Source: Felis catus
Taxonomy: Eukaryota
Direction of reading: 5' to 3'
Assembly: GCF_018350175.1 (NCBI RefSeq)
Contig: NC_058369.1
Coordinates: 10,788,001 to 10,852,000 of the forward strand
Length of the DNA: 64,000 nt
The notes beneath the pieces were generated by a model. It saw only the letters and a program-made list of their open reading frames with translations, was not told the DNA's origin and ran no database searches. Both the position numbers and the translations under genes were made by a program. This document shows, in pieces, positions 12,763-47,442 of this stretch. Numbering within the stretch: position 1 is the first letter of the stretch; each line of letters begins with the position of its first letter.

Positions 12763-12803
<41 letters not shown>
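12757..12803. repeat. (CG)n(CA)n compound microsatellite
   Basis: Direct reading. Confidence 0.95.
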
Positions 12804-12805
<2 letters not shown>

Positions 12806-13019
12806 CACAAATGATTGTTTCTCTGGCTGTGTTCTTACCATGACTTCTCACCCCCACCCCCCGTGATTAAGTTTGGAGGGAGTATAACTCAAGCTGGCCA
12901 GATCCATAATCATTCCCCTAAACAATGTAAAATGTTACCTGAATTCCAATGAACAAGCTTCCCGTGAAGGAATAACATTGACAAGTCAGACTGGCATGTT
13001 CATTTTCTTTCCTGTATTT

Positions 13020-13358: not shown

Positions 13359-13944
13359 ACTGTATTCCAATTTAGTTGGTGAAGGTTGTTTCCTAAAGGC
13401 TGGCACAGGAGGCTAGCCATCTGAAAGAAAAGAAAGTTTCCCTAGACGCACATTTAAACAATCCAGAGGGATTAGAGACCTTGAAGTAAATGGAAACAGT
13501 ACATTTTCAGTGAACGTGCATAAAAACGCAGATACAAGCCACAGGTGAGCAAAATCGTAATTAAGGCAGGAAAATTAGAAGTAAGATAGATATATTTAGC
13601 TATATAAAATTTAAATCATTTTGTGGACATGATATCCAACCCAAGGCAATAAACGGTAATCTGTGAACTTCATGTGAAATGCTGCTAGCTGCGGAATAGG
13701 CATAGACTTTATGGACACATAATAACAATAGAGATGCAACAATGAACCTGGTGATCAAATATGTACATATTGGCTCAAATTCAGTAACGGTTGAAGAACA
13801 CAAGATCTCTCGAGCTGACTGGGTTGAAATTTTTAAACAGGTAGAAAAAAGAGATTCTCTAATTTTTCTGGGAGGAGTGTGAACCACTGCGATGTTGAGA
13901 AAACAACTGAAGACAGCTACAAATGTGAAAACACAGATATGCTT

Positions 13945-14140
13945 TAACTCAGAGATTCTCAGTCTCGGCACCCTTGACGTTCTGATCCAGACTGGCCTCT
14001 GTGGTGTGTGTGTGTGTCCTGGGCTTTGAACGTGTTTAGAGCATCCCTGGCCCTTCCTGAGCCGCCCCCCCCCCACCATGTGACACCCAAATAAGTCGTG
14101 TCCCCCTGAGGGACAGTGTTTCCTCCAGTGGAGAACCAGA
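13945..14140 (-). mobile_element. MER20-like fossil
   Basis: TTCTCAGTCTCGGCACCCTTGACG...TTTAGAGCATCCCTGGCC...TGTCCCCCTGAGGGACA...GAGAACCA. Confidence 0.7.
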
Positions 14141-14998
14141 TTTTTCACATAACAATCTCAAAATATTTTTGCAGAATTGTTATAATAGCAATGCATCGAG
14201 AAAAGCTAGGAAAAGCTTTTGAAGTGTGAGTAGCACAGCCGTATCATGAAATATTATGCAGACATCGAAATAAAGAATCAGCATTTCCCTAGTCGGTTGG
14301 AGACAAGTCCATGAGGTAGTTTTGAGGAAGAAGGAAGAGTGGACGCACGTAGAAGAAAAGACTACCCTAAAACCTAAAGAGCGTTTATGTTGTCCACAGC
14401 CCGCTATTCATTCATCCGTCTGGTTATGAATGTGTATGTGCGCCTAAGATAGGAAGAGAAGCTTTATGAGAACTGAAAGAATAAAGACTTCCAGGAGGAG
14501 TGAAATTAGGGCAAGTTTCAAAACAACTGTGGGAAACAAAATTATGTGAGACTCTAAAAGCGACTTACAAAAGGCATAAAATGATTTAGTGGTATCGAGG
14601 TGGGCCATTGATTTCAGATCACACTTCCAAACACGTGGAAAGAAAAGAATGCGATAGAATCACCTTTATCACTGGGGAAGGAGCCGTATCTAAATGATAA
14701 ATATTTTCTTATAACGATACATGGATTCAAATATGCTTATGGAGAGTAAGGTGATCTTCAGTCAAATGTAAAGAAGCCGTGGTAGTCAGAGATAATGCAA
14801 CTTCTGGAAATACATCTTTTCACAATGGGCCAATAGGAACTGTAGGGAATAACAGAGATGGGAAGGCACGTGGAAATGTGTATAGACAGTGATTTGTGAG
14901 CAACGTACAAAATACCACGTATGCTCCTTTTTGTTTATAGCAAGAATTTGCAAGTGAAGAGTATTAGTGACAGCTCAGTACAGGATAATGAAATAAGG

Positions 14999-15001
14999 AA
15001 A

Positions 15002-15040
<39 letters not shown>

Positions 15041-15080
15041 AAACATACATAAGTAAATAAATAAATAAATAAATAAATAA
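14999..15080. repeat. (AAAT)n microsatellite
   Basis: Direct reading. Confidence 0.92.
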
Positions 15081-15584
15081 CAAGAGAGAACACAGTATAA
15101 CCGAGTGACAGATTTGACCCCATATTACTAATGAACACAGTCCTATATGTCTATGTCACAGTGCATATATGTCTACATGTCCACAATGGAATTCAATGGT
15201 AAACGGCAAAGTGGGAAAAATAACACCGAACACCTCACCCACTTCCTTTTTAGAAAGAATGCAATCAGAGATGGCAGTAGCACCTCCTCGACTCCACTGT
15301 ACAAATGCAAAGACCTGTTAGAGACAATGTGTAAATTAGGCAACCAAGGAATAACTAACCCACAAATATAGTCAACTTCGTAGATAATGAAATCACTGCA
15401 AAGGAAAGCTAGGTAACCATAGTTTTCATTTATTACATCATGGCAGTCATACGAATATCCAGAGTAAGAGCACATTGTGAAAATATATGTCTCATGAATT
15501 AATGTTGCAAGGTCGTATATGCAAGCAGTAAATTGGTCTAGATATTTCTCATCAATATGGAAACGTAGCCCAGTATGCCCCATT

Positions 15585-15796
15585 TGTTTAATGTTTTTTT
15601 ATTTATTTTGAGACAGGGTGTGTGAAGGGGGGGAAAGACAGAGAGGGAGAGAGACACAGAATCCAAAGCAGGTTCCAGTCTCTGAGCTGTCAGCCAGAGC
15701 CCGATGCAGGGCTTGACCTCACAAACCATAAGATCATGACCTGACCCGAAATCAAGAGTTTGCAGCTTAACCCACTGAGCCACCCAGGCACCCCCC
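15585..15796 (-). mobile_element. CAN-SINE
   Basis: Head CTGAGCCACCCAGGCACCCC; imperfect TSD ATGCC(C/T)CATTT. Confidence 0.92.
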
Positions 15797-16029
15797 AGGA
15801 TGCCTCATTTAAAGACAAAAAAGAAATGTCCTGACTTCACTGCACATCCCTCCATCCCTAATTTTCCTACTCCCTTCAACTGCAAAACTCATTGGACATG
15901 TTCTACTTTTACTGGAAGTATTTCCTGCCTCCCCTCCCATCACTTCACTGGCAACAATCACCCATGTGTGGCTGAGTTCAATGTGCAATCCTTTCTGTAA
16001 CATCATCCACGAGGTCATTAAGTAATCAG

Positions 16030-16680
16030 GCAAGCAAATGACCATAGAGATCTCCAGGTTCTGGGCTAGGCTGGTGGCTGTGTGGTGACCTTAGGTAAAT
16101 GCACCTGTCTTTGATTCTCCCTACTCTTTTCCTGAAGATCCTGCCGGGTCTCAGACTCACCTGGATGGGAGCTCTGAGGGAGAGGTCTCCTTGTGGCTGT
16201 CTGAATTCCCTCCAGATGGTTATTGGTGGTGACTAAACTCTGTCCCCACACAAGACGACAGGAAAGAGGCTAGCATGAGTCTCCCAGCCAAGCTTCAGAC
16301 TCCGGAAGCAACAACCAGGTCCCATCAGCCCAAGGTTGCACAGGCAGAGGGACGGCACACAGGAGATATTTATAGTTTCCTCTGTCTGTTCATGAGGCAC
16401 GTTCCCCTCCTGCCTCTCCAACCTACAGCACATGATTTCCCTGGAGGACACTGGTCTGGAGACAAAGGAAAGTTTTTTGGAGATTCCATATTCCCAATAG
16501 ACTGTGACCCCAGTGTTAATCACTCCTTGCTCTTGAACTCTGCTCCTCCCAGAGGGCAGACATCCCGCATCTCATCCCAACCCTGATTTCAGCTTTTCCC
16601 CCAAGTCTAGAACTGCACAATCTTTGTGGATTAGATGCCTTGGATGTCCAAACACTTGGCTTGTGGTGGAGACACAGCTC
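16030..16680 (-). promoter_or_regulatory. Candidate promoter / non-coding exon 1 module X for OR-2
   Basis: Paralogous module on the OR-2 strand. CAG|GTGAGT donor at 16161/16160; O/E(EBF)-like CCTCCAGGGA near 16440. Confidence 0.5.
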
Positions 16681-16914
16681 CGCTATCTATGGAACATTCC
16701 TATTTCCTTTTCAACGAGTTCCTTTGATATGAACCCCAAGCACTACGTACCTCAGCTTCATGACACATTTTCCAAACATTTAGGCATTCCATAATATGTC
16801 ACAAGGTAACAGCTGCCATGTAGCCCCTCTGTGTGAAGCATTTGTCAGTTATATAAAATATATTCAGATCATATTTGGCACTATGATATGAGCTTGGGAC
16901 AGAAAAGTAAACAG

Positions 16915-17075
16915 ATCCTTCCCTGTAGCTTCCAGAAGGAACCAAGCCTTGCAAACATCTTCGTTTCAGACCCATGAGAACGACTTCAGGCTTTTGAGCC
17001 CCAGAACTGTAAGAGCATACATGTGTGTTAAAACACTAATGTAGTCATTGTACGTTAGCATTAGGACTTGGACAC
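16915..17075 (+). mobile_element. MLT1 (MaLR LTR) 3' fragment (paralogs ~30895-31050 and ~50295-50680, minus)
   Basis: AGCTTCCAGAAGGAACCAAGCCTTGCAAACATC...CCAGAACTGTAAGA. Confidence 0.65.
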
Positions 17076-17484
17076 AAACATTTGTCCAATAAAATTTTGC
17101 TAAGAACCTGAGACTAAGCTTCTCCGTTCATTCACTATAGCTCCCCCTGGGTAAAGGCATTTTGTGTTGTAATCCCATCTTTAAGTAGAAGAATTTTAAA
17201 ATCAGTTTGGAGATATTCGTCCTCTTTAGCTGGTAGAGAATTTCTCAGGGCATAAATACAAACGTGCTCCAGATTTTATTGTCTTTGACGCATTAGCAGA
17301 AGAAAAGTAATTCATCATTTGAATGTATGTCTATTGTTTATACTAAATTGTTGTGTCTACATGTCTACATTCTATCAATTGCATATTAACTCAAACATTT
17401 ATTCTTTTTATGTCAACACTCTTCAAATTTCACTCATTTCCTTTCAACATAAAATAAGAGGTCATAAATGAGTCTGTGTTCATT

Positions 17485-17662
17485 TTTTAAATTTTTGTTT
17501 GAGAGTAAGAGCATGTGTGAGTGGAGGAGAGGCAGAGGGAGAGATTCAGAGAGAGAGAATCCTAAGCAAGTTCCATGCTCAGTGTGGCGGGGAACCCAAT
17601 TCCACGACCCCAGGGGAAATCAAGAGTCAGACATTCAGCCAACTGAGCCACTCGGGTGCCCC
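17485..17662 (-). mobile_element. CAN-SINE (older)
   Basis: GAAATCAAGAGTCAGACATTCAGCCAACTGAGCCACTCGGGTGCCCC. Confidence 0.85.
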
Positions 17663-17689
17663 ATTGAGTCTGCTTAAAATGAATAAGCA

Positions 17690-18000
17690 AGCACACAAAA
17701 CAGCAGAATCCGATCCATAAATATAGAGAATAAACTCGTGGTTGTCAGAGGGGGGTGGGGGGGATGGGTGAAGGGCAGTGGGAGGTACAGGCTTCCAGTT
17801 GTGGAATAAATGAGTCATGGAAGTCAAAGGCACAGCGGACAGAATATAGTCAATGATATTGCAATGGCCTGGTAGGCTGACAGCCAGCAGTGCCTTTGTG
17901 CTGGGCACCACATAATGTACGGAGAAGTTGAATCTCTACGTCGTACACATGAAACTCGTGTAACATTGTGTGCCAAGTGCACTCAGATAATAATATTTTT
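17690..18000 (+). mobile_element. Old L1 3' end (inverted paralog 29895-30215)
   Basis: GAGGTACAGGCTTCCAGTT...AATATAGTCAATGATATTG...GAAGTTGAATCTCTAC...CATGAAAC. Confidence 0.8.
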
Positions 18001-18279
18001 AAAAACGATTCTGTGTTTGGGTACATATGTGTAGGTGTGTTTATTTGAAATAGAAATGTATACAGAGAAACACACATATATGCATACATACAACTTTACG
18101 GCTGAGCATTTTCTTCGGATTCAACGAAATATGTCCGCACACGTCATTTATTTCTTGCAATATACATTTGAAGTTATGTTTACGGTCCCAAGTTACTTTT
18201 GGAAATAAAGAAGCTGAGGCCAAGGGAGATTACATTTTAACAATTGGATTAAGAAGTCATCAAGGTTGTGCATTTTCTT

Positions 18280-18502
18280 TTTTTTTTTAAATTTTTTTTT
18301 CAATGTTTATTTATTTTTGGGACAGAGAGAGACAGAGCATGAACGGGGGAGGAGCAGAGAGAGAGGGAGGCACAGAATCGGAAACAGGCTCCAGGCTCTG
18401 AGCCATCAGCCCAGAGCCCGACGCGGGGCTCGAACTCACGGACCGCGAGATCGCGACCTGGCTGAAGTCAGACGCTTAACCGACTGCGCCACCCAGGCGC
18501 CC
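18280..18502 (-). mobile_element. Young felid SINE (SINEC_Fc) with 19-bp TSD CAAGGTTGTGCATTTTCTT
   Basis: Near-consensus and CpG-rich. TSD at 18261-18279 and 18503-18521. Confidence 0.96.
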
Positions 18503-18953
18503 CAAGGTTGTGCATTTTCTTAAAGAACATCAAATAGGAATGTGCAGTAGGTACTTTAGTTTTTGTATGGCTCCCTTAATTCATCAAATCATACATTCCG
18601 AATAGATGCAGTTTATAGCACATGATTATACCCCCACTAAATTAGTTAGAAGGGAAAAAAATCTAGCAGCGTACGGATCAGTGTGAAATACAGAGCAGAG
18701 GTAGCTGATTCATACTGAGTCGTGACAGGAGCTTTTTCTTCTCAGTAGGAAGAAAGCAAAGAGTGATGTATGAATACAGGAACAGTAGATGTAAATTAAA
18801 ATCATTCACTTTTGATATTCTTTTTTCCCCTGTAAAACAGAGGATAAAAATGCACTCGGAAATCGAGTTAACTGATCATATACTTGTTCAGAAGAGAAGT
18901 GCCCCATGGTCACACATGACATCATGGATGAGCCTTAGGAACAATGTAGAGTC

Positions 18954-19178
18954 GGGGTGCCTGAGTGGCTCAGTCGATTGAGTGTCCAACTTCGGCTCAG
19001 GTCATGATCTCACAGCTTGTGGGTTCAAGCCCTGCGTCAGGCTCGGTGCTGCCAGCTCGGAGCCTGGAGCCTGCTTCGGATTCTGTGTCTCCCTCTCTCT
19101 TTCTGCCCCTAACCCACTCGCATCCTGTCTCTGCCTCTCTCAAAACAAATAAACTTTAAGAAAAAATTATAAAAAAAG
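18954..19178 (+). mobile_element. CAN-SINE
   Basis: GGGGTGCCTGAGTGGCTCAGTCG...A-rich tail; flanking TGTAGAGTC repeats. Confidence 0.93.
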
Positions 19179-19484
19179 AAACTGTGTAGAGTCTCACAGC
19201 TCACTATAGACTCACGAGGAGACAGGCAGAGCTCAGAACAATCCCCAACATACAATATCATTTGGTAATAAAAGCATTACATTAAATCATTTTCTTTTAA
19301 ATGGCTTGTTATGCAGCAATGGCTAACTGATTCAATGATCACGGTGAACAGAAGTAAGGACAATTATTATCTGCTGCTGACTGTTCTTGGTATTTATTCT
19401 TGTATTTGAAGCCTGCATTCATGGTACCTCTGCTATTTCAGTTTAGTTCAGACAACTGCATATAAAACCTCTCACTGAGAAGCA

Positions 19485-19725
19485 GTGGCTCAGTCGGTTG
19501 AGTCAGTTGGTTGAGTCGGTTGGGTCTCCAACTCTTGATTTTGGCTAAGGTTGTGATCTCACAGTCATGAGATCAAGCCCCGTTCAACTTGGAGCCTGCT
19601 TAAGATTCTATCTCTGTCTCCCTCTCTGCCTCTTCCCCTCTCTCCTGCTCACTCCCCCTCTCCCTCTCTCTCTCTCTCTCTCTCAAAAACAAACAAACAA
19701 ACAATAACAACAAAAACAACAAAAC
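19485..19725 (+). mobile_element. CAN-SINE (diverged)
   Basis: GTGGCTCAGTCGGTTGAG...(CT)n, (CAAA)n tail. Confidence 0.85.
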
Positions 19726-20599
19726 AACTACCTCTCATTGAGGGTCATTTCCCCATAGCCAGAAAAGATTGAAAATGTATGCATTATTGTGTTGGAAAAC
19801 TGGTGTCCCTGATTCACATGATCAGACAGGAATGCAAGCTCCCTCTTATGTCATCCCTTGAGCATAGAAGATGAATAGAATCCTGAGCCTGAGAAACATG
19901 TATAATGGAGGAAATGACCATTCGACACCCCTTTCGTGGTTATGACAAAATTTAGAAGGAAAGGGGATATATTTCTTTTACAACAATGAAAGGAGTCATA
20001 CCAAAGGCAGCGTAAAGATTTCAGGAAGAAACAAGGAGATAATTCAATAAAAGTAGAAAAATGTCAATCAGTCCTTCCCCCATTTGGATAAGCCGCCTTA
20101 CACATGGCCACCAATCCTCCATACTCCAATAAATAGCCGTACAGCATGAAGAATAAATACTTTAAAGAGCACAATGTGCGATTTAAAATAAAATAAAATT
20201 TTGCTTCATCATATTAAAGGGCATCTGGAGTCTAAGGTCATACTCTAAAGTCAATCTATCTATTAGTGTTTGTTGTTCCATGAAGACTTCTCTTGGAGAC
20301 GCGTATTTGGTGAACACTTCAGTAAGGAAGTGACTTTCGTACACATTGTGGACAACAAGGTACTAAGAGACCAGGATCCTAATGAGGAGAATAAAACCCA
20401 TCTATACGACACATTAATATATTAAGTGTCCATTATTAAGAAGAGCAGTTAAGATACTGATATACAAAGGAGCTTCAGACATATAAGCGAAAAAACGTAG
20501 CCTCAGATATTGTTCTACTTTAAAATCACATATATTTGTTATAAAGTGTGGTTGTTTCCATAGGTGGCGTATCAATCATGACAGTTCTTTTTGTTTGTT

Positions 20600-20780
20600 T
20601 GTTTCAAGTTTTTATTTAAATTCTAGTTAGTGAACATGTAGTGTAGTGTTGGTGTCAGGAGTAGAATTTAGTGATTCATCACTTACATACAACACCCAGT
20701 GCTCACCCCAACAAGTTCCCTCCCTAATGCCCATTGCCCATGTAGCCCATCACCCACCCAATTCCGCCCACCAATCCTAA
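20600..20780 (-). mobile_element. L1 3' end (carnivore type)
   Basis: TTTAAATTCTAGTTAG...GATTCATCACTTACATACAACACCCAGTGCTC...CCCTAATGCCCAT. Confidence 0.85.
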
Positions 20781-21136
20781 GACATACAGAGAGCTAACTA
20801 GTGGTAATTGTGGCATTAAAAAAACACGTATGGAAGAAAAATTATTTGGTGTGACACAATTGTTTGAGAAAGATTATTTTTTAAAAATGTCTATGTTGCC
20901 TCAAGGTAAATGAACATTTCCAAATATTTCACATCCGTGGTTGGAAATAAAATTCAGAAAGTGGGAAATACAAGGGAAAAAATTGTAGGATATCAGAGAG
21001 AGCAGAGCTTCATAGAGTGAGTTACATACATGGCATATGGAAGTTGAGGACAAGGAAATAAACGGAAAGAGGAATACTACATCTACAGTCTGAATAAAGA
21101 CCACAGTCTCTGACACAGAGGCTTTGACCCCTGCAA

Positions 21137-22105
21137 TCATAGGCACTTCTTCAATCTTATGACGATTGGCCATGTAAGGGTCTCCTTCCCAAAGAATGCT
21201 TTCAGAGCCCTTTTCATGTCTTTGTTCCTCAAGCTGTAGATGAAGGGGTTCAGCATGGGCGTGACCACCGTGTACATCACCGAGGCTGTGGCACTTGACC
21301 GTGAGCTCTGGGTAGCAGCAGAGCTCAGGTACACGCCGAGCATCGTACAGTAAAATAAACACACGACCGACAGGTGAGACGCACAGGTGGAAAACGTTTT
21401 ATACTTGCCCTTAGCTGATGCAATCCCACGTATAGAGGAAACTATCTTGGAATAAGAGTAAAGGATCCCAGCAAAAGGACCACCACCCAGCAGGACAGCT
21501 GCAAGATACATCACCACGTTATTAAGAAAGGTGTCAGAGCAGGCAAGTTGGAGCATCTGATTGAGTTCGCAGAAAAAGTGGGGGATTTCCACCTCTGTAC
21601 AGAAGGACAGCCGAAATGCCATTAAGGTTTGTAACAAGNNNNNNNNNNNNNNNNNNNNNNNNNNNNNNNNNNNNNNNNNNNNNNNNNNNNNNNNNNNNNN
21701 NNNNNNNNNNNNNNNNNNNNNNNNNNNNNNNNNNNNNNNNNNNNNNNNNNNNNNNNNNNNNNNNNNNNNNNNNNNNAACACACCAAAGAGTATGAAAAAA
21801 TAAATCTGTGTGATGCAATCCTCATAGGTTATGACTTTGCTCTGAGTCCGGATGTTCACCAGCATCTTCGGGACGGTGGTGGAGGTGAAGCAGATGTCTA
21901 CAAAGGACAGGTTGGCCAGGAAGAAGTACATGGGCGTGTGGAGGTTGGGGTCTGTGCTGATGGCCAAGATGATGAGCAGGTTCCCAAACACAGTGATCAG
22001 GTACATGGAGAGGAAAAACCCAAATATGAGGGGCTGCAGTCCTGGTTCCTCTGAAAACCCCAGAAGAAGAAACTTTGAAATTTGTGTTTCATTACTTGGT
22101 TCCAT
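21137..22105 (-). CDS. Olfactory receptor, family 7 (OR7A-like), 322 aa, interrupted by an N gap (OR-3)
   Basis: MEPSNETQ start, [36 protein letters not shown]3-TM4 lies in Ns 21639-21776; frame is preserved across the gap but intactness inside it is unknown. Confidence 0.85.
21639..21776. other. Assembly gap (138 N)
   Basis: Run of N. Confidence 1.
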
Positions 22106-23208
22106 GTGGTGGAGGTGGCTTCTGGGAAAGAGGGAAATAAAATAACATAAATTTGTATTACTCACAAAATTGAAATGCGACTGTTTTTTTTATTTTGCAG
22201 TCCAGAAATTCCTTTTAATATGTTGTGTATGGATATGGTCCCCTTTAGGGAATCATCGCTGCCACATCTGATATATTTTTATTGTCAATCAGCTTCTTTC
22301 CTAAGAAATCATGTATTTTATACTTTTCCTGAGAAATGCTTCAAGTATTCAGGAATAAAATTGAGTGCTGACCAGGTTTCAGGCACTATCTGGGCAATGA
22401 GTATAGAGTGCTGAAGAACAAAAATCCCTACAGCGATGGAGAAAAAATATGTAAGCAAAGAAGATAATTATACAACTATCTTTTTGATACAATTATCTTT
22501 TGATTATCTCACCTTTTTGATGGTGAGGTGTGCTGTGAAGAAATGGGAAACAGGGATAAAGCGGAGAGCAAATAGGGCATTCTATTTTAATGGCATTTAG
22601 GCAAATTCTGTACACAGGTGGCATTGGAGCACAGATGTCATGTAAGACAGAGACATAGACACAGGATTCTGGGGGAAGTGTGTGCCTGGCAGGGGGAATG
22701 GCCAGTGCAAAGGCCCTGAGGAAGGTACTTGTTTCAAATGTTCAAGCGACAAAGCAAAGCCAGCGCTGCAAGGGGAATGGTCTTGAGGGACACAGATGAC
22801 AGACTCTGTCACACATGTGAGGAGGGATGTGGCCCCTCTGTGACAACTGTGACCTCCAGGCACAGGGCCATCCTTGTCCACACTGCCTCTCCCTCGGTAT
22901 TCATCGTGCTGCAAAGCCATCCCATGAATTGTCACAGATCCCCGTCTTGGTGCCTGCTCTTGACTGAGCTCTGGCCCATGTATGGTGTCACCTTGGGATT
23001 GAGGAGTCCTGGCCCCTGTTGTGAGGACTGCTCATCCTCTACAAGTCACACACGCACAAGACACCGTGGTCTTCTGGGCGGTGAATTTCCCTGTTCTCAC
23101 AGCCCCCACATTCTTGGTTATGCTGGGAATGGATACAACCCAAGGAGACCCGATCAGCCATCTTTCCCCTGCAGAGTGTAGAAATGGTTCCCAGAAATGC
23201 TAATTCTT

Positions 23209-23425
23209 TTTAAAAATTTTTTTTCAACGTTTATTTATTTTTGGGACAGAGAGAGACAGAGCATGAACGGGGGAGGGGCAGAGAGAGAGGGAGACACAGA
23301 ATCGGAAACAGGCTCCAGGCTCTGAGCCATCAGCCCAGAGCCCGACACAGGGCTCGAACTCACGGACCGCGAGATAGTGACCTGGCTGAAGTCGGACACT
23401 TAACCGACTGCGCCACCCAGGCGCC
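23209..23425 (-). mobile_element. Young felid SINE (SINEC_Fc) with TSD CCCAGAAATGCTAATTCTT
   Basis: TSD at 23190-23208 and 23426-23444. Absent at the paralogous site near 39900. Confidence 0.96.
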
Positions 23426-25039
23426 CCCAGAAATGCTAATTCTTAACCCTCCCATGGACCAATCACCATGGAGCTCCATGCTGGAATGTTAATTTTCCTC
23501 TGTGATTTACACCAGTGTAACAAAGTCTGCTCAATAGATGAAAGAGACAGAGGGTGAGATACAGAGGGAATGAAATCGATGAGGGAGAGCAATGATCTCA
23601 TAAGCTGGGGTGGTCCCTGAGAGACTGTGAGGAAGAACTATCTCCCTTGCTTCTCCCCTGGTTACATCCCCTGATGCCCAGCAAAAATAATAAGAGAATG
23701 AAGCAAACTTGTTTAAAAGACAGATATGATATATTCATGGTGTACTTGTACAAAACTATATAGATAAAAATATAAATAGATACAAATTTTAACATATCCA
23801 TTTATATTATACATCAAGAAAAAAGAGCAAAGGGATAAACCAATACAATCAAAGTCGGGAATTTTTATATCAAGCCTAGAAGACATTTTCCTGTACCTCC
23901 TGCATCATTATATGACTGATTTATTTCTACGTGATTGATGGGGATGGGGTTAGCTCCTTTTTCCCTCTTCTTATGTGGCACCTTTTCATTGATATTCCTG
24001 GGCTTTGAGTAAAGATCTCTCTTTCTCAAACCCAATGGACACCCTCTAGTCCTCATTCTGGATCTCATCCAACATGCAAAGGACTCCCCAGACCATGCTC
24101 TGTAAATCCTGCCCACATCATGACAGTCTCAATGCTCCACTGTAACATCCAGAAGAGCAGGGACTTTATCCTCTCTGTTCATTTCTGTTTTTCACCAACT
24201 TAGTTGAATATATGTTTTCTCTAAGAAGATATAAGACTATGAGAAGTTATAGAATGGAAAGAATGAAAGGTTCTGGCAACCAGGTTAAAATAGTACCTTG
24301 GAAACACCTGTCATAAGCAAAGTTGTATGAAAAATAAAAGCAAACTGGAACAGGTAAAAATAGCAGTCATTAGTAATACCGACACGGATTAATAACTAAA
24401 TTGTGAACGACCATGAAAGAATATGACATATAGTGTCCCTAGAATGTTCTGGCCCATGGCAGATGCTCAGTTATTATTTGTTGAGTGAATCAGGAATTAG
24501 GTCTCAGTGTATAAGGACATTTCCTATATGACAAGGTCGTATTTCAGTTTCGTTGGAAAAAGGTGAATTGCTAAGTAACAGCTAGAATAAATGGATATCT
24601 ATCTGGAAAAACATTAAACTGGTCCCCTCCCTCAGACACATTATCGACACCAGAGGGATAATGACTTCAGTGTAAGTGTAACCATACAATATATGGAACA
24701 TCAAGAAAACTGCATATAACGTTTACAGGTGGGAAAAACCACTAAAATAAAGCAAGAAACTTAGCAATAAGAAGATAGGAATATTTAAATCAAGTTAAAC
24801 ATTTTTATGGTCAAAGAATGTTTCCAAAGTCGACGGAGAAGCAATGATCTGAGGAAATCTTTTGAAATGCTAAAAAAAAGCAGGGGAGGGGGAATAGCAT
24901 ATGGCCATATAATAATCAGAAAGGTCATCACATATTTGCTGAAACTGAGGGATAGATTAAGAAACAACAGGAAATGTCTTCTTCACCCAGGAACCTGGGG
25001 AAAAAACTTAGCGCAGTGTTACATTGTGTGTGGTTGGAA

Positions 25040-25247
25040 CTTTTTTTAATGTTTATTTTTGAGAGAGAGAGAGAGAGACAGAGTGCAATTGGGGAGGGGC
25101 AGAGAGAGAGGGAGACAGAATCCGAAGCAGGTTCCAGGCTCTGAGCTGTCAGCATAGAGCCTGGTGCGGGGCTCGAACTCATGGACTGTGAAATCATGAC
25201 CTGAGCCAAAGTCGGACGCTTAACCGACTGAGCCTCCCAGGCGCCCC
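25040..25247 (-). mobile_element. CAN-SINE
   Basis: Head GAGCCTCCCAGGCGCCCC; flanking TGTGGTTGGA repeats. Confidence 0.94.
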
Positions 25248-25499
25248 TGTGGTTGGACTCTTAAGCAGGTAGTCTTGGGGTTACACTGAATTTGCTGGTG
25301 GAAAGGTGGGTGTTACAGGTTGAAGGCAGGACCTGAAAGCAGCTATATTACAAATATTCATATTTTTAATGCAGGGTTTCTACGTCTCTGCCTATGGACA
25401 TCCTGACCAGAGCCTGCCCAGTGCTGAGGTCTGTGTATCTTAGGATGTTTAGAGCATCCCTTTCATGGTAAAGAATATGAAGGACTCTCAAAAGTGTTC

Positions 25500-26200
25500 G
25501 TAGCAGCCATTCTGCGAAACTGGCACAGTCACTGAATAAATACATTCATTACTTACGCAAGCAAATAAACACAGTGATCACTTGCTATGGACTAAGTTGA
25601 ATTGGCCCCGGGGTGATGATGGATTAATGTTCTCGGACAACCCTGTCATCCACGGTGCCCGGGGCTGTTGGACTCACCTGGCTGGGTGTCTGACAGGAAG
25701 GTCTCCGTGTGAAACTGAATTCTTCCCAGGACAGCAGGTAACAGGGACTAAGGCTCTGTCCTCAGCGGAGACAGCAGGGGGGAGTGAAGCATCATTCCCA
25801 GCCAGAATTAGGACTCAGAACAAACAGACCAAACCCACTCGCCTTCCTGCCCAAGGTCGCACAGGCTGACAGGAGACCAGAGGTATTTACACCTCCCTGT
25901 ATCTGCTCATTAGGCGCATTTCCCTCTTGTTACTCCAACCTCTAAGCGTATGATTCCCAATGGAAAGCTGCTCTGGACATAAAGGATTTCTTCCTGATGA
26001 ATCTCAGTTCCCAAAAGACTCGGTTAGAGATCAAGGGAATCCAGTTCTTTTCTTCTTTCTCCTTTTCCCTGAACTTGCCCTCTTCCTGTTATGTAAATCT
26101 CCTAGCACGTTATCTCAGCTCACAGTTACACTTTTCTCCAGCTCTAAGACGGAAGGACACACCGGGATTAGGTCTCTCTAACTTCAAAACCTTGACTGGT
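25500..26200 (-). promoter_or_regulatory. Candidate promoter / non-coding exon 1 module Y for OR-3
   Basis: Core similar to module X. CAG|GTGAGT donor at 25678/25677, ~3.6 kb upstream of the OR-3 ATG. Confidence 0.5.
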
Positions 26201-26231
26201 CTCGGGGACCCAGCCCCGCCATCTCCAGTGT

Positions 26232-38588: not shown

Positions 38589-38614
38589 CTCTGTTGATAA
38601 GAACAGTAGACACT

Positions 38615-38875
38615 GGGTCGCCTCGTGGGCTCAGTGGGTTCATCTTCCGTGTCTTGATTGCGGCTTAGGACATGACCGCATGGCCATGGAACTGAGCCCC
38701 CAGATTGCTTCTGCACTGAGCATGTAGACTGCTTGGGATTCTCTCTCTCCCTCTTTCTCTGACTCTCTCTCTTAAAATAAATAAATAAACATTAAAAAAG
38801 CTTCTCTCTGTCCCTCTCCCCTCCCTTCCTCTCCCCCACTCATGCTCTCTCTCTCCCTCTCTCTCAAAAACAAAA
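38615..38875 (+). mobile_element. CAN-SINE (older)
   Basis: GGGTCGCCTCGTGGGCTCAGTGG...GCTTGGGATTCTCTCTC...AAATAAATAAAC. Confidence 0.82.
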
Positions 38876-38914
38876 AAGAGATAGACAGGCAGACAGCACT
38901 AGAAATGCGACAGC

Positions 38915-39640
38915 TGGGTCCCTAGGACAGGCAATGCTTGGAAGACAAAGAGGACTAATCCCGGAGGGTTCCTTGGTCTTAGACTTGGAGGAAAGTGTGT
39001 CTCGGCCGAGATCAGGTGCCAGACGATTTACACATCAGGAAGGGAACAAGTTCAGGGAAAAGGGGAGGAAAAAAAGAACTGCATTCACTTGGTCTCTGAC
39101 CTAGTCTTTTGGGAACCGAGAGTCATTAGGAAAAAATACTTGTGTCCAGAGCAGTTTCCCACTTGGGAATATGAGATCAGAGGCTGGGGTACCAAGAGGG
39201 AAATGAGCCTAATGAGCAGATACGGGGAGCTGTAAACACTCTCTGGTCTCCTGTCAGCCTGTGCGAACTTGGATGGAAAGGGACAAGGTCTCCGTCTGTT
39301 CTTCCAGGCCCTAATTACGGCTGGGGCCCATGCTTTACTCCTTTCTGCTGTCTCAGCTGAGAACAGAGCTTTAGTCCCTACCATCTGCAGTCCAGGGAGG
39401 CATTCAGACTTGTCACAAGGAGACCTTGTCAGACACCCCAGCCAGGTGAGCCCAACGGCCCGATGCGCCGTGGATGACAGGGTCATAAGAATGGAAGCCA
39501 ACTTCATTAACCTGTCTTCGCCTGAGAGCCAATTCAACTTAGTGCAGGACAGGTGATCACTGTGTTCATTTGTTTGTTCGATTAAGTGATGTATTTATTC
39601 AGTGGCTGTGTCAATTTTACAGAGTGGATGCTCACACTTA
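38915..39640 (+). promoter_or_regulatory. Orphan module Y (own OR coding region absent)
   Basis: Inverted paralog of 25500-26200. CAG|GTGAGC donor at 39445/39446. Confidence 0.45.
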
Positions 39641-40074
39641 CGTTGATCTTCCATATTCTATTCCTTTAACTTACTATTAAGGCAATGGCAGTTTATTTTA
39701 CCACCTGGTGTCTCAGGAACCACACAAGTTTATTAGATAATTGCTCTGCCTCATCTGTTTCATTCACTGCCCCCCTCCCCCCGACTCTCTGCCTCGCTGT
39801 CTGTTGAACAGACTGTTTTATGTTTGTGTGAATCACAGCAGAAACTTACCATTCCAATATGGAGCCTCAAATTCATTTGTCCATGGGAGGCTTAAGAACT
39901 GGCATTTCTGGGAACCATTTCTATACTTTGCGGGGAAAAGATGGCTGATCTGGCCTCCTTGGGTTGTGTCCATTCCCAGCATAACTGGGATGGTGAGTCT
40001 GTGAAGACAGGGAAATGCACATCCCAGGAGGCCATGGTGTCTTGTGACTGGTGAAGGGTGAGCAGTCCTCAAAA

Positions 40075-40250
40075 AAGTTAGAGGGGGAGGGAGCCAAACC
40101 AGAAGAGACTCTTAAAAACAGAACAAATTGTGGGTTGATGGGGGGAGGGAGGAGGGCGAGGCTGAGTGATGGGTATTGAGCACTGTGGGGATGAGCACTG
40201 GGTGTTGTATGGAAACCAATTTGACAATGAATTTCATATTTAAAAAAAAG
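40075..40250 (+). mobile_element. Short L1 3' end (L1_Fc-like)
   Basis: GGAGGGAGCCAAACC...GATGAGCACTGGGTGTTGTATGGAAACCAATTTGACAATGAATTTCATATTTAAAAAAA. Confidence 0.88.
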
Positions 40251-41015
40251 GGGGGTCAGGACTCTGAAATCCCAAGATGATGCAATACAGGGGCCAGAAC
40301 TCAGTCAAGAGAAGGCACCACGAAGGGGATCTGTGGCAACTCGTGGGATGCCTTGAGACCATGATGTATACAGAGGGAGACGTAGCGTGGGCAAGGACGG
40401 CCCTGTGCCTTGAGATGACAGTTGTAGCAGAGAGGCCACTTCACTCCTCACATGTGTGAAAGCGTCTGTCATCAGTCTCCATCAGGCTCATTGCCCTTGT
40501 AGCACTGGCTTTGCTCTTTGCCTTGAACTTTTGAAACAATACTTTCCTTGGGGCCTTTGTACTGCCCCTTCCCTCTGCCAGGTAAAGGCTTCCCACATAA
40601 TCCTTTCTGTCTTATATGAGTTCTGTTTTCCAACGTCACCTCGTTTGCAGAATTTGCCTAAATACCCACTAAAATAGAATGCCCTATTTGCTCCCTCCTT
40701 TATTCCTGCTTTTCTTTTCTTCACAGCAGCCCTCACCATCTGAAAAGTTACAGAATTCTCTTGTTTGCTTATATACTTTTTCTCCATGTTTCTAGGGATT
40801 TTCGTTCTTCACCACACCATATACTCATTGCCTGAAACATGGTCAGCACTCAATTTATATTCTGAATACTTGAAGAATTTCTCAGTGAAATTATAAAATA
40901 CGTTGTTACTTACAGAAGAAGATTTTTGACAAAAAAAAACCCCTACATCAATGTGGCAGAAGGAATCCCTTAATGGGGGCCATATCTATACACAACATAT
41001 TTAAACGAGTATCTG

Positions 41016-41074
41016 GGGGCGCCTGGGTGGTTCAGGCTTAGAAGCGTCCAACTCTTGATTTTGGCTCAGGTCTC
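41016..41074 (+). mobile_element. CAN-SINE 5' fragment at a deletion junction
   Basis: GGGGCGCCTGGGTGGTTCAG...TTGATTTTGGCTCAGGTC joined to module X. Confidence 0.85.
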
Positions 41075-41760
41075 CACCGTAAGCTAACATTTTGGAGATC
41101 CAAGGGATCTAATCCAGACTGATTGGTTAGTCCTAGATTTTGGGGAAATGTTAAAATCAGGGTTGGGATTAGGTGCTGGGATATTTGAACTCTGGGAGGG
41201 ACAGAACTCACAAGGTAGGAGTAATGAACACAGGGGTCACGCAGTTATAACCTGGTCTATTGGGAACACAGAATCTCCAGGAAATCTTTCTTTGTGTCCA
41301 GACCAGTGTCCCCCAGGGAAATCATGTGCTGTAGGTTAGACAAGCAGGAGGGAAACATGTCTCATGAACAGACAAAGGAAACTATAAATGTCTCCTCTGT
41401 GCAGTCCCTCCCCCTGTGCCACCGGGGGCGATGGGACCTGATTGTTGTTTCTAGAGTCCGAAGCTTGGCTGGATGACTCATGCTAGCCTCCTTCCCACCA
41501 TCTTCCGCAGGGAGAGGGTTTAGTTGCCACCGATAACCATCCAGGAGGAATTCAGACAGCCACATGGACCCCTCTCCCTCAGAGCTCCCAGCCACGTGAT
41601 TCCAGGTGCCCAGCAGGTCCAGCAGGAAAGGGTCAGAGAGAATCAATGCCAGGTGCACTTACTTGAGGTCACCTCACAGCCACCAGCCTAGCCCAGAACT
41701 GGAGATCTCTATGGTCATGTGCTTGGCTGACCATGCCTTCCTGAAAAACCACAGTAGACA
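41075..41760 (+). promoter_or_regulatory. Candidate module X for OR-5, donor degenerate
   Basis: CCCCCAGGGA at 41310-41319. The donor position reads CAC|GTGATT (~41595). Confidence 0.45.
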
Positions 41761-42475
41761 AGGTCAGAGAAGGTCCTGTTCCTCTGGTACTTGCCTTATA
41801 TGGCAGAGTCATAGTAGAATGAATTAAGTGTGTGGTGTAAGAGCCTCAGGCAGAAATCTTATGAAGACGGTGATTCAGAGCCTAGACTGACTGTCACGGT
41901 GTGTGCAGAATTCTGTAGAGCAAGGTCTGAACAAACCTTTGGGTGTTGTGCAAACCGGAAACAGGACCAGAGTGTGCCCACTACCCTTGCCAAGAAAGAG
42001 GTCACAATGCAAAGGCCAGGAAAAACAAAAGATGCCACATCTGAAAAGTGAAAGGGACTTATCCACCTTCTCCAAGATCACAGGACATCCAATGGGTCAA
42101 AGAAATATGAACCAGACACAGAAAAAAAAACCAAGTCTCCTACTGCATCATTATAACCTGCCCAACTTTTGCTGTGCTTTGCATATTTCCTGTGCCAAAG
42201 GGTTGATTTATTCCCTTAGCACACTTTTCTCTTGGAGCATTCAGTCTGTAAGGCAATCCACATGCTGAACAACCCACTAATTTCGTCTTCTGACCACATT
42301 TAATTTTGCTCCTTATTATTTTTGCTGGGCATCAAGGAGGTAACAAGACTTGGAATGTTGTCAGACCTAGGGATGCTCTTTCTTCTTCACGGCCCCTCAG
42401 GTTTCAGTGACCATATGAACCATGAAATCTTTTGTGCCACTTCAATTTCATTTCACTCTCTTGCCTCTCTCTCTC

Positions 42476-42497
42476 TGTGTGTGTGTGTGTGTGTGTG

Positions 42498-42532
<35 letters not shown>
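42476..42532. repeat. (TG)n microsatellite, interrupted
   Basis: Direct reading. Confidence 0.95.
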
Positions 42533-42535
<3 letters not shown>

Positions 42536-42781
42536 CTCTGATTTTGAGCAGACAGTTTGTTTTTCTTTAAATGCAGGACAGAAAATAAGCATGCCAGTCT
42601 GACCTGTCAATTGTATTTGTCCATAAGAAGCTCCATCATTGGAATTCAGGTACCATTTTTACATCATTTGTGAGGAATGATAATGGATCTGGCCACATTG
42701 GTTTATAGCCACTCTGAGCTTAATTATTGGGGCTGGAGGTGAGAACTCATTGAAGAACACAGCTCAAGGAGTGATGATTTG

Positions 42782-42806
42782 GTGTGTGTGTGTGTGTGTG
42801 TGTGTG
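42782..42806. repeat. (TG)n microsatellite (paralogous to 33416-33438, 52264-52286, 12770-12803)
   Basis: Direct reading. Confidence 0.92.
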
Positions 42807-43746
42807 TCTTGTCTTGTGGAGGGAGATCCGTTTCCAGAGCAGGGGTGCCTTAGCTAATATATTCTAAGTTGACTCTAATAATACAGAAGCCAGCACTCAA
42901 TCAGCACAGGGTACTCAGGAGGGCTCCTTGTCAATTTACAGGAGGCTTTGCAGATAGATTCAAAAATATAAGCAGTATGTAGTGTGGGTGAGTGACTCCT
43001 TTCCCTCTAAGGGGAACCAGCAATGAGGCCACCCATTTCTTTGAAGTTGCCTGACACCATCTCTGATTTCTCTCCTGTTTACTCCTCTTCACACAACGCT
43101 TCCTATTTTGGACCCCAATAGCTCCAAGTAGTATGATCCTCAGGGTCTTAGCAGAGGCCATTCCCTCAGCCAGCACACACTTCCCCAGAAATGCTTGCAG
43201 ATCCTGCCCTCCTTTCCCTGAAGTCTCTGTTCAAATGTCACCTGTCACGGGTCTTGACCAAATACCAATTACACAACGACACTCGTATCCACGTTCTCCT
43301 TTATATCTACTTTTGTTCTCTTCATAGCACGTTGACACCCTCTAATGTCTTATTAGTATTTTTATTTGTTTCTATTCATTCTCCGTCATTGGATGATACT
43401 TGCGTTTGGTTTTTCAGTATCCCATACTCATTGCCTACACAATGCCTGGAATATGTTTGACAATCAGCACATATTCCTCCAATGCAGGAAAGATAGTCTT
43501 AGTAAAACAGTAAAATGCATGACCTCTGCTGGGGAGTGTGGAGCATGAGACCAAAACACCTAATCTGAGGTGAAACAGGAGGGAATCTCTTCAAAAAGAC
43601 AATCCTTTGGGGACAAAAGGGACAAGATACTGAAATGAACTTCTTGACTGCACAATATAAATGGTAGCATTTCAACTATGTGGGTAAACTGTTGATGTGA
43701 AAATTAATGATGTCCTTTGCCTCTTTCTGGGGGTCAGTGCAACCTC

Positions 43747-44679
43747 ATGGAACCAGGAAATATTACACGGATATCAAAATTTCTTCTCCTGGGATTTTCA
43801 GTGAGACCAGAACTGCAGCCCCTCATATTTGGACTTTTCCTCTCCATGTACCTGATCACTGTGTTTGGCAACCTGCTCATCATCCTGGCCGTCAGCTCTG
43901 ACTCCCGCCTCCACACCCCCATGTACTTCTTCCTGGCCAACCTGTCCTTTGTAGACATCTGCTTCACCTCCACCACAGTCCCGAAGATGCTGGTGAACAT
44001 CCAGACCCAGAGCAACATCATAACCCATGAGGACTGCATCACACAAATGAACTTCTTCATAATCTTTTCAGGGTTGGACATCTATCTCCTGGCTGTGATG
44101 GCCTATGACCGGTTTGTGGCCATCTGTCACCCCCTGCACTATAAGGTCATCATGAACCCCCGGCTCTGTGGGCTGCTGGTCCTGGTGTCCTGGATCACAA
44201 GTATCCTGCATTCCTTGTTACAAACTTCAATGGTGTTGCAGCTGTCCTTCTGTACAGAGGTAGAAATCCCCCACTTTTTCTGTGAACTCAATCAGTTGAT
44301 CCAACTTGCCTGTTCTGACACCTTTCTTAATAACTTGGTGATGTACCTTGCAGCTATGCTGCTGGCTGGAGGTCCCCTTGCTGGGATCCTTTACTCTTAT
44401 TCTAAGATAGTTTCCACCATAATTGGAATCTCATCAGCTCAGGGAAAGTATAAAGCGTTTTCCACCTGTGTATCTCATCTTTTAGTTGTATCTTTATTTT
44501 TTTGTACGAGCCTAGGTGTGTACCTCAGCTCTGCTGCCACCCAGAGCTCCCACTCAAGTGCCACAGCCTCGGTGATGTACACGGTGGTCACGCCCATGCT
44601 GAACCCCTTCATCTACAGCCTGAGGAACAAAGACCTAAAGGTGGTTCTTAAAAGAATCATTGGGATTTCATTGACGTGA
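43747..44679 (+). CDS. Olfactory receptor, family 7 (OR7A-like), intact, 310 aa (OR-5)
   Basis: All OR motifs. ATG at 43747 (MEPGNIT). Confidence 0.94.
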
Positions 44680-47442
44680 GGGCCAATCATATTAGGGCTG
44701 AAGACGTGCCCATGATTGCAGGGCTCAAAGCTTCAAAGTCAGGGATTAGTTATTCTTTGATTAGACTGTGGAAGTGAAATCCGCTCCTTCTATTTATGTG
44801 CTGGAATTTCCATCTTTTTTTATGTCAACTTCTCTATACATTTAAGTAAATCACTTTATTAAGCTTCTGCTGTTTCTGATATACAGACCGTTTCCCCTTT
44901 GTCTATTTTCATATGTCACCAATGTTTTCCTCAACCTTGGATCATGAATGCCTGGAAATTCCTATATCTCACATGGGAGTAGTTGGATTTCTTAAAATTA
45001 ATTTCATTTCAAGTGACTTATACCATGCCGGGTAAATTTCCCCTCGATTTCCTGAGATCATTATCATGAATCATACTCTTCTTATGAAAGAAAGCTACAC
45101 TTGATCAGGAAGCCATTTCCATAATTGTATTGCCAAGGAGAATACAAAACCACAGTTTCCACCTTGAGTCTACCAGTCTTTTTCCTTCACTTCATTTAAT
45201 ACTCTTCCTGATGATGTGGAATCTAACATTGTTCCATTTAAACCTCGGGCTATTGACACCAATGCTTTGTCAGGAAAGCCCGAGCACTCACCTGCACCCG
45301 GGGTATTTTTGGACATTCCCACAGACCTTTCCTTGACCAGGCCTATGCTGTGACTGCACAGGTCCCTGGGTTCTTATTGTGATCACAAGACACACACCAG
45401 CAACACCTATCAGAGAACTCTAAAAACGGAAATGTATTATTCACATAAGCTGGAGGGCACAGGGATGCCCAAGGGCCATTTCTGGATGTCTCAGAGGGGG
45501 AGAGAGAGATGGAGAGGGAGACAGAGAGTGCTGCTGAAGGACCTGGGTCTAAAGAGATACTTTATGGCTGAGGGTAGCTGAGCCATATGTTCATTTAAAT
45601 AATAAACAATATGTTTATTTCGCATGGTTGTCTTTGAATTCGATGCCCCAGAAATCTAAAGCTCAATTTCACTTATGCTAAACATGCTATTGTGCTCTAT
45701 AACCGGTCTCCTGGTTTTATTCTGTTATTTAGTTCGGGGTCCAGAAAGCCTCCCATAGCCACTGGCAAACCTGATTAGCAAATATTCATCTCCCAGTGGA
45801 GTGTACTTAGAAAGACAAATTTGAATAAATAGATCAACCTGATGTTCTTAGTATCGGCATGACCATAAGTATGAGGAGGCAAAATTTCGAAACACTCATT
45901 TTGCTACACAAAAAACATTTCTCTCTTTTTTTTAATGTCCCAGTACACGCTACGCACCTCTTTATTAAAGCACGGAAGATGGTGGTGTTCACAACTGAGG
46001 GGGTTTATTCATTGAGGTGCAGGATTGCTGAGTGCCTTCTAGCTTTTATCAGTGAATTATCTTCCCATTTCTGCTAGAAAACTTCTCGTGCTAGCTGCTA
46101 ATATGACTCTTTCCGTTGTTACACAAAATAACTTCCTTTTCCTAATATTAGTCACAAATGCCGAGAGATGGTGAATGAACACTACCAGTATCATCCATTT
46201 CGTACCTCTTTCCTGCCCTGAAATCTCTTCCGCCTGCATGACCAGAGGATGCTTCACCCGAGAGCTGGATGTCCTGCTGGGGTGTGGCTCAGGGTCCCCA
46301 GTTCTTCTGCACAAACGTGCATGTCCTTCAAACTCTCCCTGTTACCCAGAAGGGAGCCCTCACGTGGTCACTTGTTCATCAAGTCATGGGAAATACACTT
46401 GAATCACTGAATGGTCATGAGTGCCCTCCTCAATTGTCAAATCATATGACACTAGTAAAAGGTAGAACGTGTTCAAATTAGTTCAGGTCGGTTGCTCGGA
46501 TGATTGTGTCAGTCAGCTCTTGCTGTATAACATTCTTTCCTTGTCACGTGGGATGTTAAAATGATGTGGGATCGCCGAGGACAAAGGTCACAAAAGAATC
46601 CTTGAGTTGTTTCACCGTGCAAAAAAATGTGCTCTCATAGCAAGGCGGCAGGACTCATGGCCAGAGAGCGCTGCACTGGGATTGTGGAAAGTGAGTGATT
46701 ATATACTTTTAAGTTCGTGGAGGGAGGGAAGGGTAGAGATAACATAAACGTCGAAGGAATTTCCGTATGCTGAAAGTGACCTTGGAGGTCTGGCTCCTGT
46801 CGAGAATAATGGTGCTTTTAGTCTCCAACAAAACATCAGCATCAGAGTAGCCGTGAGTTCCTGGAGAATGTCATTCCCTGCATTTCTTGGGGATTTATCA
46901 GTGAGCTACAGTTGTTGGGAATCTGACTTCGAGCAACATTTCTCATGCTTTTTGTTCTCTTCGTCAATAATACCTTTACAATCAAACGGCATTGTATCGG
47001 GAAACTTTTCTGACCTCTGCTGGGCTCCTCACGGGTCTGTGGTCAGGACTGAATCCCTACCTGGTATTTCTAGGGCCCATCCATGACGTTGTGTCTGTGG
47101 CTGTCATGCTGTTCTGTTTCAGCCGGATTCTTGGTCTTATTTCTACATTTCGATTTGTAGGATAGTCTTCTATTTACAAATTACGCACGCTTATGTGTAT
47201 TCTTTGAGTTGCATCTCACTGCGCCTACATCCGTACATAAACTTGCTTTCCTTCCGTTACAAGAGCTATCTCCACACCTGTAATGGAGAGTCAGCTAACT
47301 GTGCTCCAAATCCTCCTCTGAGCCCTGCTCCATAGATATGTCCCCAATTAAATCATTGAAGTATAATTATACACAATACACCGCGTATTGAAAGGGTACA
47401 ATTTGGTACGTTAAAGGAGCTACACAAGAATGTAGAGCACAT

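What the first reader, a model, noticed from the sequence alone, without database searches (positions are those of the whole stretch)
38915..43747. Headless OR-3-type gene fused upstream of OR-5: possible promoter capture
Seen: 38.9-41.015 kb is an inverted paralog of the OR-3 5' region (module Y plus intron, 26.2->22.2 kb, with an internal deletion). It stops ~100 bp before the coding region would start. A SINE head (41016-41074) then joins via GTCTCCA into module X, so the equivalent of ~22.2->16.7 kb (about 5.5 kb, including an OR CDS) is missing. The orphan Y keeps a good donor (CAG|GTGAGC, 39445), while the OR-5 X donor has decayed to CAC|GTGATT. Inference: OR-5 may be transcribed from the promoter of its deleted neighbour, or from two tandem promoters, which could change its choice frequency or zone.
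Basis: partly seen in the sequence, partly recalled or inferred. Interest (0 to 1): 0.7.

Follow-up and report, generated by a model that had tools for sequence, protein, structure and literature searches.

The report
Orphan smell-receptor promoter upstream of neighbour
In a cat smell-receptor gene cluster, the front end of one gene (likely promoter, first exon and intron) has no coding part behind it, likely lost in an old deletion, and sits directly upstream of an intact receptor gene whose own first splice site has decayed, so that gene is likely transcribed partly from the borrowed promoter, an untested variant of exon sharing already known in human receptor genes.

Summary
The anatomy is real. 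In a felid OR7A-type cluster, 38897-41016 is a paralog of the OR-3 5' region and stops 97 bp short of the ATG. An old CanSINE head joins OR-5's promoter module X through a 3-bp microhomology (GTC, not 7 bp). The paralogous interval that is missing is 5,528 bp and holds an OR CDS. 'Headless' is backwards: the head survived and the body is gone. The orphan donor is strong (U1 duplex -11.1 kcal/mol), OR-5's own is decayed (-1.8; paralogs -11.1 to -12.2). No AATAAA/ATTAAA lies between the orphan exon and OR-5, and OR-5 is intact across cats. Against obligate capture: OR-5's own core promoter keeps its TATA and O/E sites with no excess change, a weak cryptic donor lies 10 nt downstream, selection on the orphan after the deletion is not shown, and no RNA evidence was obtained. 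Best reading: two tandem promoters, with the orphan exon 1 likely spliced into OR-5 mRNA (about 50%). First-exon sharing between neighbouring ORs is known, including human OR7A5/OR7C1 and OR51E2/OR51C1P. What differs here is a fully deleted donor CDS. Modest interest.

The parts
38602..38897 (+). Old SINE sequence just upstream of module Y; an element at the same position flanks the OR-3 Y copy, so it likely predates the duplication
   Evidence: alignment with 26561->26390
38915..39255 (+). Orphan Y promoter region (predicted): homeodomain TAATGA at 39210, no canonical O/E or TATA match
39256..39445 (+). Predicted orphan first exon (start inferred) ending in the strong donor CAG|GTGAGC
39446..41015 (+). 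Orphan intron, paralog of the OR-3 intron with about 1.8 kb deleted internally; ends 97 bp short of the ATG equivalent
40071..40250 (.). Interspersed repeat insertion in the orphan intron (L1-like label recalled)
   Evidence: matches 51094-51281 and 38247->38068
41003..41015 (+). Likely 5' target-site duplication after a TT|AAA site; no second copy in the window with up to 2 mismatches
41016..41072 (+). 5' head of an old CanSINE (TCTTGAT motif, subfamily I-like), cut off by the deletion
41070..41072 (+). Junction microhomology GTC
41073..41410 (+). OR-5's own promoter module X (predicted): TAATGA 41222, O/E 41309-41319, TATA 41382
41411..41595 (+). OR-5's own predicted first exon (start inferred) with decayed donor CAC|GTGATT
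41603..41611 (+). Weak cryptic donor CAG|GTGCCC (last exonic base 41605), absent from X2, X4 and X6
42942..42987 (+). Predicted 46-nt 5'-UTR mini-exon, acceptor AG and donor TGG|GTGAG kept in all 4 X-type genes
43738..44679 (+). OR-5 coding exon (begins 43738 after the acceptor; CDS 43747-44679, 310 aa, OR7A-type)
45601..45829 (+). First AATAAA signals downstream of the orphan exon (45601, 45824)
11016..26230 (-). Template paralog cassette Y-OR3-intergenic-X-OR2 used to infer what is missing

Best explanation
An OR-3-type 5' region without a coding part is joined through a truncated SINE directly to OR-5's promoter module, likely by an old microhomology deletion, and OR-5 likely has two tandem promoters, with the orphan first exon predicted to splice from 39445 into the mini-exon (42942) or coding exon (43738) and supply much of the translatable OR-5 mRNA. 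Shown: paralogy, junction, donor sequences, absence of AATAAA/ATTAAA, intact CDS. Inferred order: a two-gene cassette (Y-OR3type-X-OR2type) duplicated; a CanSINE inserted 97 bp upstream of the first CDS; a deletion from inside the SINE to just upstream of X removed that CDS; X's donor then or separately decayed. Untested: promoter firing, splice use, any effect on zone or choice frequency.
For: Cassette order is repeated in the window and the orphan intron is OR-3-type. X2, X4 and X6 all continue upstream with a common sequence where X5 breaks off at the SINE. U1 duplex energy: Y39 -11.1, X5 -1.8, X2 and X4 -12.2, X6 -11.1. Y39 ranks 1 of 290 GT sites in 38900-43750 and X5 ranks 33 (recalled PWM). 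0 AATAAA/ATTAAA on + from 39256 to 43746, against 7 on the other strand and 7.5 expected. Y-started models carry 2-3 short uORFs, none overlapping the CDS. Y39 keeps TAATGA, as does OR-3's Y; the donor-less 6 kb copy does not. Y39 core has 8/146 private changes against 24/196 in its intron, p=0.04. OR-5 orthologs are full-length at 94.5-96.1% in 11 felid records, so expression is likely needed. Lynx pardinus OR-6, OR-5 and OR-4 orthologs have consecutive accessions, the latter two on a 22,200-bp contig, against a 19,985-bp span here: too short for 5.5 kb more if all three share the contig. Precedent: human OR7A5 and OR7C1 share exon 1 (PMC7055050 supplement).
Against: No RNA evidence: none of the 6 RNA holders listed is an olfactory library by its record, and no reads were laid. 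X5's core promoter is not decaying (9 private changes against 14 in X4) and holds canonical O/E and TATA, which Y39 lacks. Cryptic donors at 41605 and 41652 (-6.8) could rescue X transcripts. The core-versus-intron pattern of Y39 is similar in Y3 (10/146 against 23/196, p=0.14) and partly predates the deletion, so it does not show selection on the orphan. With about 12% private change per site, an intact 7-base donor core is expected by chance about 40% of the time (my arithmetic). Poly(A)-signal depletion is general in X-type introns (1 of 3.8, 1 of 6.2, 0 of 2.1 expected) and is not significant for the orphan part alone (0 of 2.6, P=0.07). Two other orphan Y modules in the window have lost their donor, so orphan Y modules here can simply decay. 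Whether the X5 donor change exists in other cats is unknown.
Confidence: 0.5

Rival explanations
1. The deletion is real, but OR-5 still runs from its own promoter X, using the new cryptic donor at 41605 (or 41652); the orphan Y is a slowly decaying relic with little output.
For: X core has O/E, TATA and an X5-specific TAATGA and no excess change. CAG|GTGCCC at +10 is present only in X5, U1 duplex -6.8. X(+10) models have only short uORFs. The other two orphan Y copies decayed.
Against: The cryptic donors are about 5 kcal/mol weaker than the paralog donors. X5 exon 1 shows a hint of relaxation (21 against 10 private changes, p=0.07). Retaining intron 1 gives a 1,585-nt leader with 26 upstream ATGs.
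Confidence: 0.3
2. The X donor change is recent and confined to the cat lineage; OR-5 is an ordinary X-driven gene in other felids and is weakly expressed or drifting in this species, with the orphan irrelevant.
For: Conservation of the CDS in other cats says nothing about their donors; no ortholog DNA could be read. No Prionailurus record at 94% or more was among the 120 listed hits.
Against: The CDS here is intact and its branch in the quick tree is short (0.032). X5 has 7 private changes in the 32 sites around the donor, many for one young lineage, though X4 has 4 there.
Confidence: 0.13
3. No OR CDS was deleted at this junction: it is an assembly join or another rearrangement (for example an X-OR-5 unit inserted into an already orphaned Y).
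For: No outgroup DNA was seen. The window has several rearrangements and other OR-3-type paralogs lie outside it, so the 5.5-kb figure rests on one paralog. The junction was not checked with reads.
Against: Both sides match one intact cassette in the right order. SINE head with a TT|AAA site and a single target-site copy. 14 DNA-type or unlabelled runs from 6 studies hold 82-84% of the words of 38900-44900 (not junction-specific). Lynx and Neofelis accession order agrees.
Confidence: 0.07

Closest known systems
Human OR7A5 / OR7C1 shared first exon (PMC7055050, supplements 1, 2 and 5; passages seen)
   Same: Same OR7A/7C family; a downstream OR uses the first exon of an upstream same-strand OR (chr19:14835074-14835285 in both models).
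   Different: RNA-supported; the upstream CDS is intact and the exon lies about 35 kb from the OR7C1 CDS. Here the upstream CDS is deleted, the distance is 4.3 kb and splicing is only predicted.
OR51E2 / OR51C1P shared 5' exon (PMC7055050 Fig. 4 legend; PMC4982115 passage)
   Same: An intact OR uses the first exon of a dead neighbour as a second, distal promoter.
   Different: The neighbour is an annotated pseudogene; the distal promoter is used in prostate while OR51E2's own first exon works in olfactory epithelium. Here the own donor is decayed.
CanSINE subfamily I (PMC4084570, passages seen)
   Same: tRNA-derived head with TCTTGAT near the position of the diagnostic TCCTGAT motif.
   Different: Only 57 nt survive; one mismatch to the printed motif; the later diagnostic positions are deleted.
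Birth-and-death evolution of OR clusters (recalled)
   Same: Cassette duplication, inversion, partial gene loss and orphan 5' modules.
   Different: Nothing, if the orphan is silent.

Membership tests
OR loci sharing a 5'-UTR exon with an upstream gene (Barnes 2020) | Upstream same-strand first exon of another OR gene with a usable donor | tested here: met
   exon status inferred from donor conservation and a paralogous exon in an automatic cat model (P0015)
OR loci sharing a 5'-UTR exon with an upstream gene (Barnes 2020) | Splice junction between the two genes supported by RNA-seq, EST or mRNA | tested here: inconclusive
   no olfactory RNA holder listed; no reads laid
OR loci sharing a 5'-UTR exon with an upstream gene (Barnes 2020) | The upstream gene still has its own coding or pseudogenic exon, so the exon is shared | tested here: not met
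   no OR remnant at E<0.1 in 38900-43600; it would work like exon sharing but is not filed as a member
OR7A-type olfactory receptor (OR-5) | Single-exon CDS of about 310 aa closest to OR7A/OLF4-named proteins | tested here: met
OR promoter | O/E site upstream of the start | tested here: inconclusive
   X5 met (41309); Y39 and the intact gene's Y3 have no match to two recalled patterns, only variants
OR promoter | Homeodomain site | tested here: met
   TAATGA at 39210 (Y39) and 41222 (X5)
OR promoter | Mapped transcription start in olfactory neurons | not testable with these tools
   needs CAGE or 5'RACE
Microhomology-mediated deletion | Short shared sequence at the junction | tested here: met
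   GTC, 3 bp; 3 bp can also arise by chance
Microhomology-mediated deletion | Undeleted orthologous allele in an outgroup | not testable with these tools
   no mammalian genomes held; empty
SINE-SINE recombination deletion | SINE at both breakpoints giving one full chimeric element | tested here: not met
   only a 57-nt head; no SINE at the X-side position in X2, X4 or X6
CanSINE subfamily I | TCCTGAT motif near position 36 | tested here: inconclusive
   TCTTGAT at position 38, one mismatch

The most novel reading that the evidence does not exclude
Since before the cat radiation, OR-5 has depended on the promoter and first exon of its deleted neighbour: a natural promoter swap in which a Y-type promoter (TAATGA, no canonical TATA) drives an X-type receptor while the gene's own intact promoter makes mostly unspliced, untranslatable RNA. 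Cats against hyenas or meerkats would then be a natural test of whether the promoter alone sets an OR's zone and choice frequency, and whether two tandem promoters add up.
Probability: 0.25. Interest if true: 0.55.

Novelty: new variant of a known kind. Interest (0 to 1): 0.3.

Why it matters
[quoted passage not shown] A fixed natural promoter swap, or a double promoter, would show that OR expression can be rewired by losing a neighbour's CDS. It would also mean that CDS-only repertoire counts miss such regulatory remains. If the orphan is silent, this is ordinary OR cluster turnover.

Tried and rejected
No genome is held for this window. The one attempt to lay reads gave no data, so the junction and the splices are unchecked at read level. 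Two metagenome scans for outgroup DNA: 0 loci each. Earlier scan notes: nothing near, in relatives or by words. An apparent acceleration of Y39 exon 1 (36 against 13 private changes) vanished on realignment (20 against 17, p=0.74) and was rejected as an alignment artefact; conversion of Y39 from X was not supported (3 of 22 private sites X-like). Transcript models were off by one base and were redone. A 7-bp microhomology and SINE-SINE recombination were rejected. A search for a surviving ortholog of the deleted gene (120 of 397 hits listed; quick tree of 111 hand-picked rows, 104 of 239 fetched proteins plus 7 window ORs) showed several OR-3-type paralogs but could not assign one to this site. 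A possible junction-made exon (41070-41214) is only a sequence possibility. Paper searches (listings only) showed no paper on this cat locus or on cat olfactory epithelium RNA; subscription journals are not covered and figures were not seen.
Full report
Setting. The window holds seven OR7A-type coding regions. Close relatives are named OR7A5/7A17/7A2-like or OLF4 in felids, and the window's contig has the same length as that of Felis catus-named records, so this is likely domestic cat. No genome was held.

Observation. Self-comparison shows 38897-39669 matching 26230->25462 and 39687-41016 matching 23646->22202 (71-80%). About 1.8 kb of the OR-3 intron equivalent is absent and a 180-bp repeat is inserted. 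The match is far above chance (678 against at most 29 in 30 shuffles) and specific to OR-3 among six intron ends (527 against 29-49). It ends 97 bp before the OR-3 ATG. An old SINE lies at the same position upstream of both Y copies, so they likely come from one duplication after CanSINEs arose. At 41016 a SINE head follows a TT|AAA site; the 13 bases before it have no second copy in the window, as expected if the 3' end and second target-site copy were deleted. The head carries TCTTGAT, one mismatch from the motif of the old subfamily I, dated 45-60 million years ago (PMC4084570, passages). SINE and module X share only GTC. X2, X4 and X6 all continue upstream with common sequence where X5 breaks off. 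In the intact cassette the matching gap is 5,528 bp and contains OR-3; no coding remnant was found in the orphan. The head survived and the body was lost, so 'headless' is a misnomer.

Age and reality. No reads were laid. Of 24 listed runs, 14 DNA-type or unlabelled runs from 6 studies hold 82-84% of the sampled words of 38900-44900; which words are missing is unknown. Indirectly: Lynx pardinus orthologs of OR-6, OR-5 and OR-4 are VFV29049, 29050 and 29051, the last two on a 22,200-bp contig; the span here is 19,985 bp. Neofelis OR-4-like and OR-5 accessions are also consecutive. This suggests the loss is older than the cat-lynx split and perhaps the felid radiation, but accession order misses pseudogenes and the contig of the lynx OR-6 record was not shown.

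Splice anatomy. The orphan donor CAG|GTGAGC is the best of 290 GT sites in 38900-43750 by a recalled PWM; OR-5's own ranks 33. U1 duplex energies are -11.1 and -1.8, against -11.1 to -12.2 in four paralogs. X5 alone has a new CAG|GTGCCC 10 nt downstream (-6.8); another at 41652 scores the same. A 46-nt mini-exon (42942-42987) is conserved in all four X-type genes. No AATAAA/ATTAAA lies on the sense strand from 39256 to the OR-5 ATG (7.5 expected), the first being at 45601. X-type introns are depleted anyway, and the orphan part alone is not significant (P=0.07). All modelled spliced leaders have only short uORFs; retaining X intron 1 gives 26 upstream ATGs. Inference: if Y fires, its transcript should reach and splice into OR-5.

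Do the promoters still work? Y39 keeps TAATGA, like OR-3's Y and unlike the donor-less copies at 6 and 59 kb. Its core has fewer private changes than its intron (8/146 against 24/196, p=0.04), but Y3 shows a similar trend (p=0.14) and part of that branch predates the deletion. Neither Y has a canonical O/E or TATA match. X5 keeps O/E (41309), TATA (41382) and a TAATGA of its own, with no excess change in the core (9 against 14) and only a hint in exon 1 (21 against 10, p=0.07). These motif classes are the ones enriched in OR promoters (PMC3247239, PMC12547500, PMC4982115; passages). So both modules look usable and neither is shown active.

Is OR-5 under pressure to be expressed? Among the 120 listed of 523 hits, 11 felid records are full-length at 94.5-96.1%, with meerkat, hyena and spotted hyena relatives at 89-91%. 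The quick tree groups the felid set (support 92) and the feliform set (93), both under 95; Leopardus and Acinonyx candidates fall outside, and no Prionailurus record reached 94%. Some productive transcript is therefore likely, but the donors of those species were not seen.

Mechanism. Most likely two tandem promoters, with the orphan exon 1 supplying much of the spliced mRNA (0.5). Rivals: own promoter with cryptic donor (0.3), recent cat-only decay (0.13), no deleted CDS or assembly join (0.07). Effects on zone or choice frequency are speculation.

Known context. Barnes et al. 2020 (PMC7055050; passages and supplement rows seen, figures not) count 7 human and 7 mouse OR loci with shared 5'-UTR exons. 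Human OR7A5 and OR7C1 models begin with the same exon. OR51E2 uses the first exon of pseudogene OR51C1P in prostate; some sharing is seen only outside the nose. The present case would work like these but differs in that the donor gene's CDS is gone and the acceptor gene's donor is decayed. It fails one membership feature and lacks RNA support, so it is a predicted variant, not a member. Nine searches listed no paper on this locus.

Verdict. Observation confirmed with small corrections; interpretation partly supported and untested; new variant of a known kind; interest 0.3.

Noticed in passing
window 3000-10300 against 62000-54900: Inverted duplication at 96-99.6% identity over about 7 kb, falling to 82-92% over the flanking OR genes; a young duplication or conversion tract.
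   Followed up: partly
window 6030-8270 (+) and 59100-56890 (-): Two more Y modules with part of an intron but no CDS behind them; both lost the donor by a small deletion and have TAACGA in place of TAATGA.
   Followed up: partly
P0015 (Felis UniProt model, 349 aa); window 34371-35297: An automatic model joins an X/Y-family first exon that is not in the window to a CDS identical to OR-4, although OR-4 has its own intact X module; a possible long-range shared exon, or an annotation artefact.
   Followed up: partly
window 48800-50700: Module Z runs directly into the intergenic segment before X6, so a whole Y-type gene seems to be missing upstream of OR-6 as well.
   Followed up: partly
window 28300-28900: Likely inversion breakpoint among repeat fragments; the OR-4 unit begins with an OR-3-type 3' flank that has no gene in front of it.
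   Followed up: partly
window 63762-62830 (-): OR-7 has an in-frame stop after 185 aa; likely a pseudogene.
   Followed up: partly
window 41070-41214 (+): The junction creates a possible acceptor (SINE-derived) paired with an X5-specific donor AAG|GTAGGA, a candidate cassette exon in Y-started transcripts.
   Followed up: partly
window 52409-52614: A young SINE sits just before the OR-6 mini-exon, whose acceptor reads TTTAAAG; X6 also lacks the TATA match.
   Followed up: no
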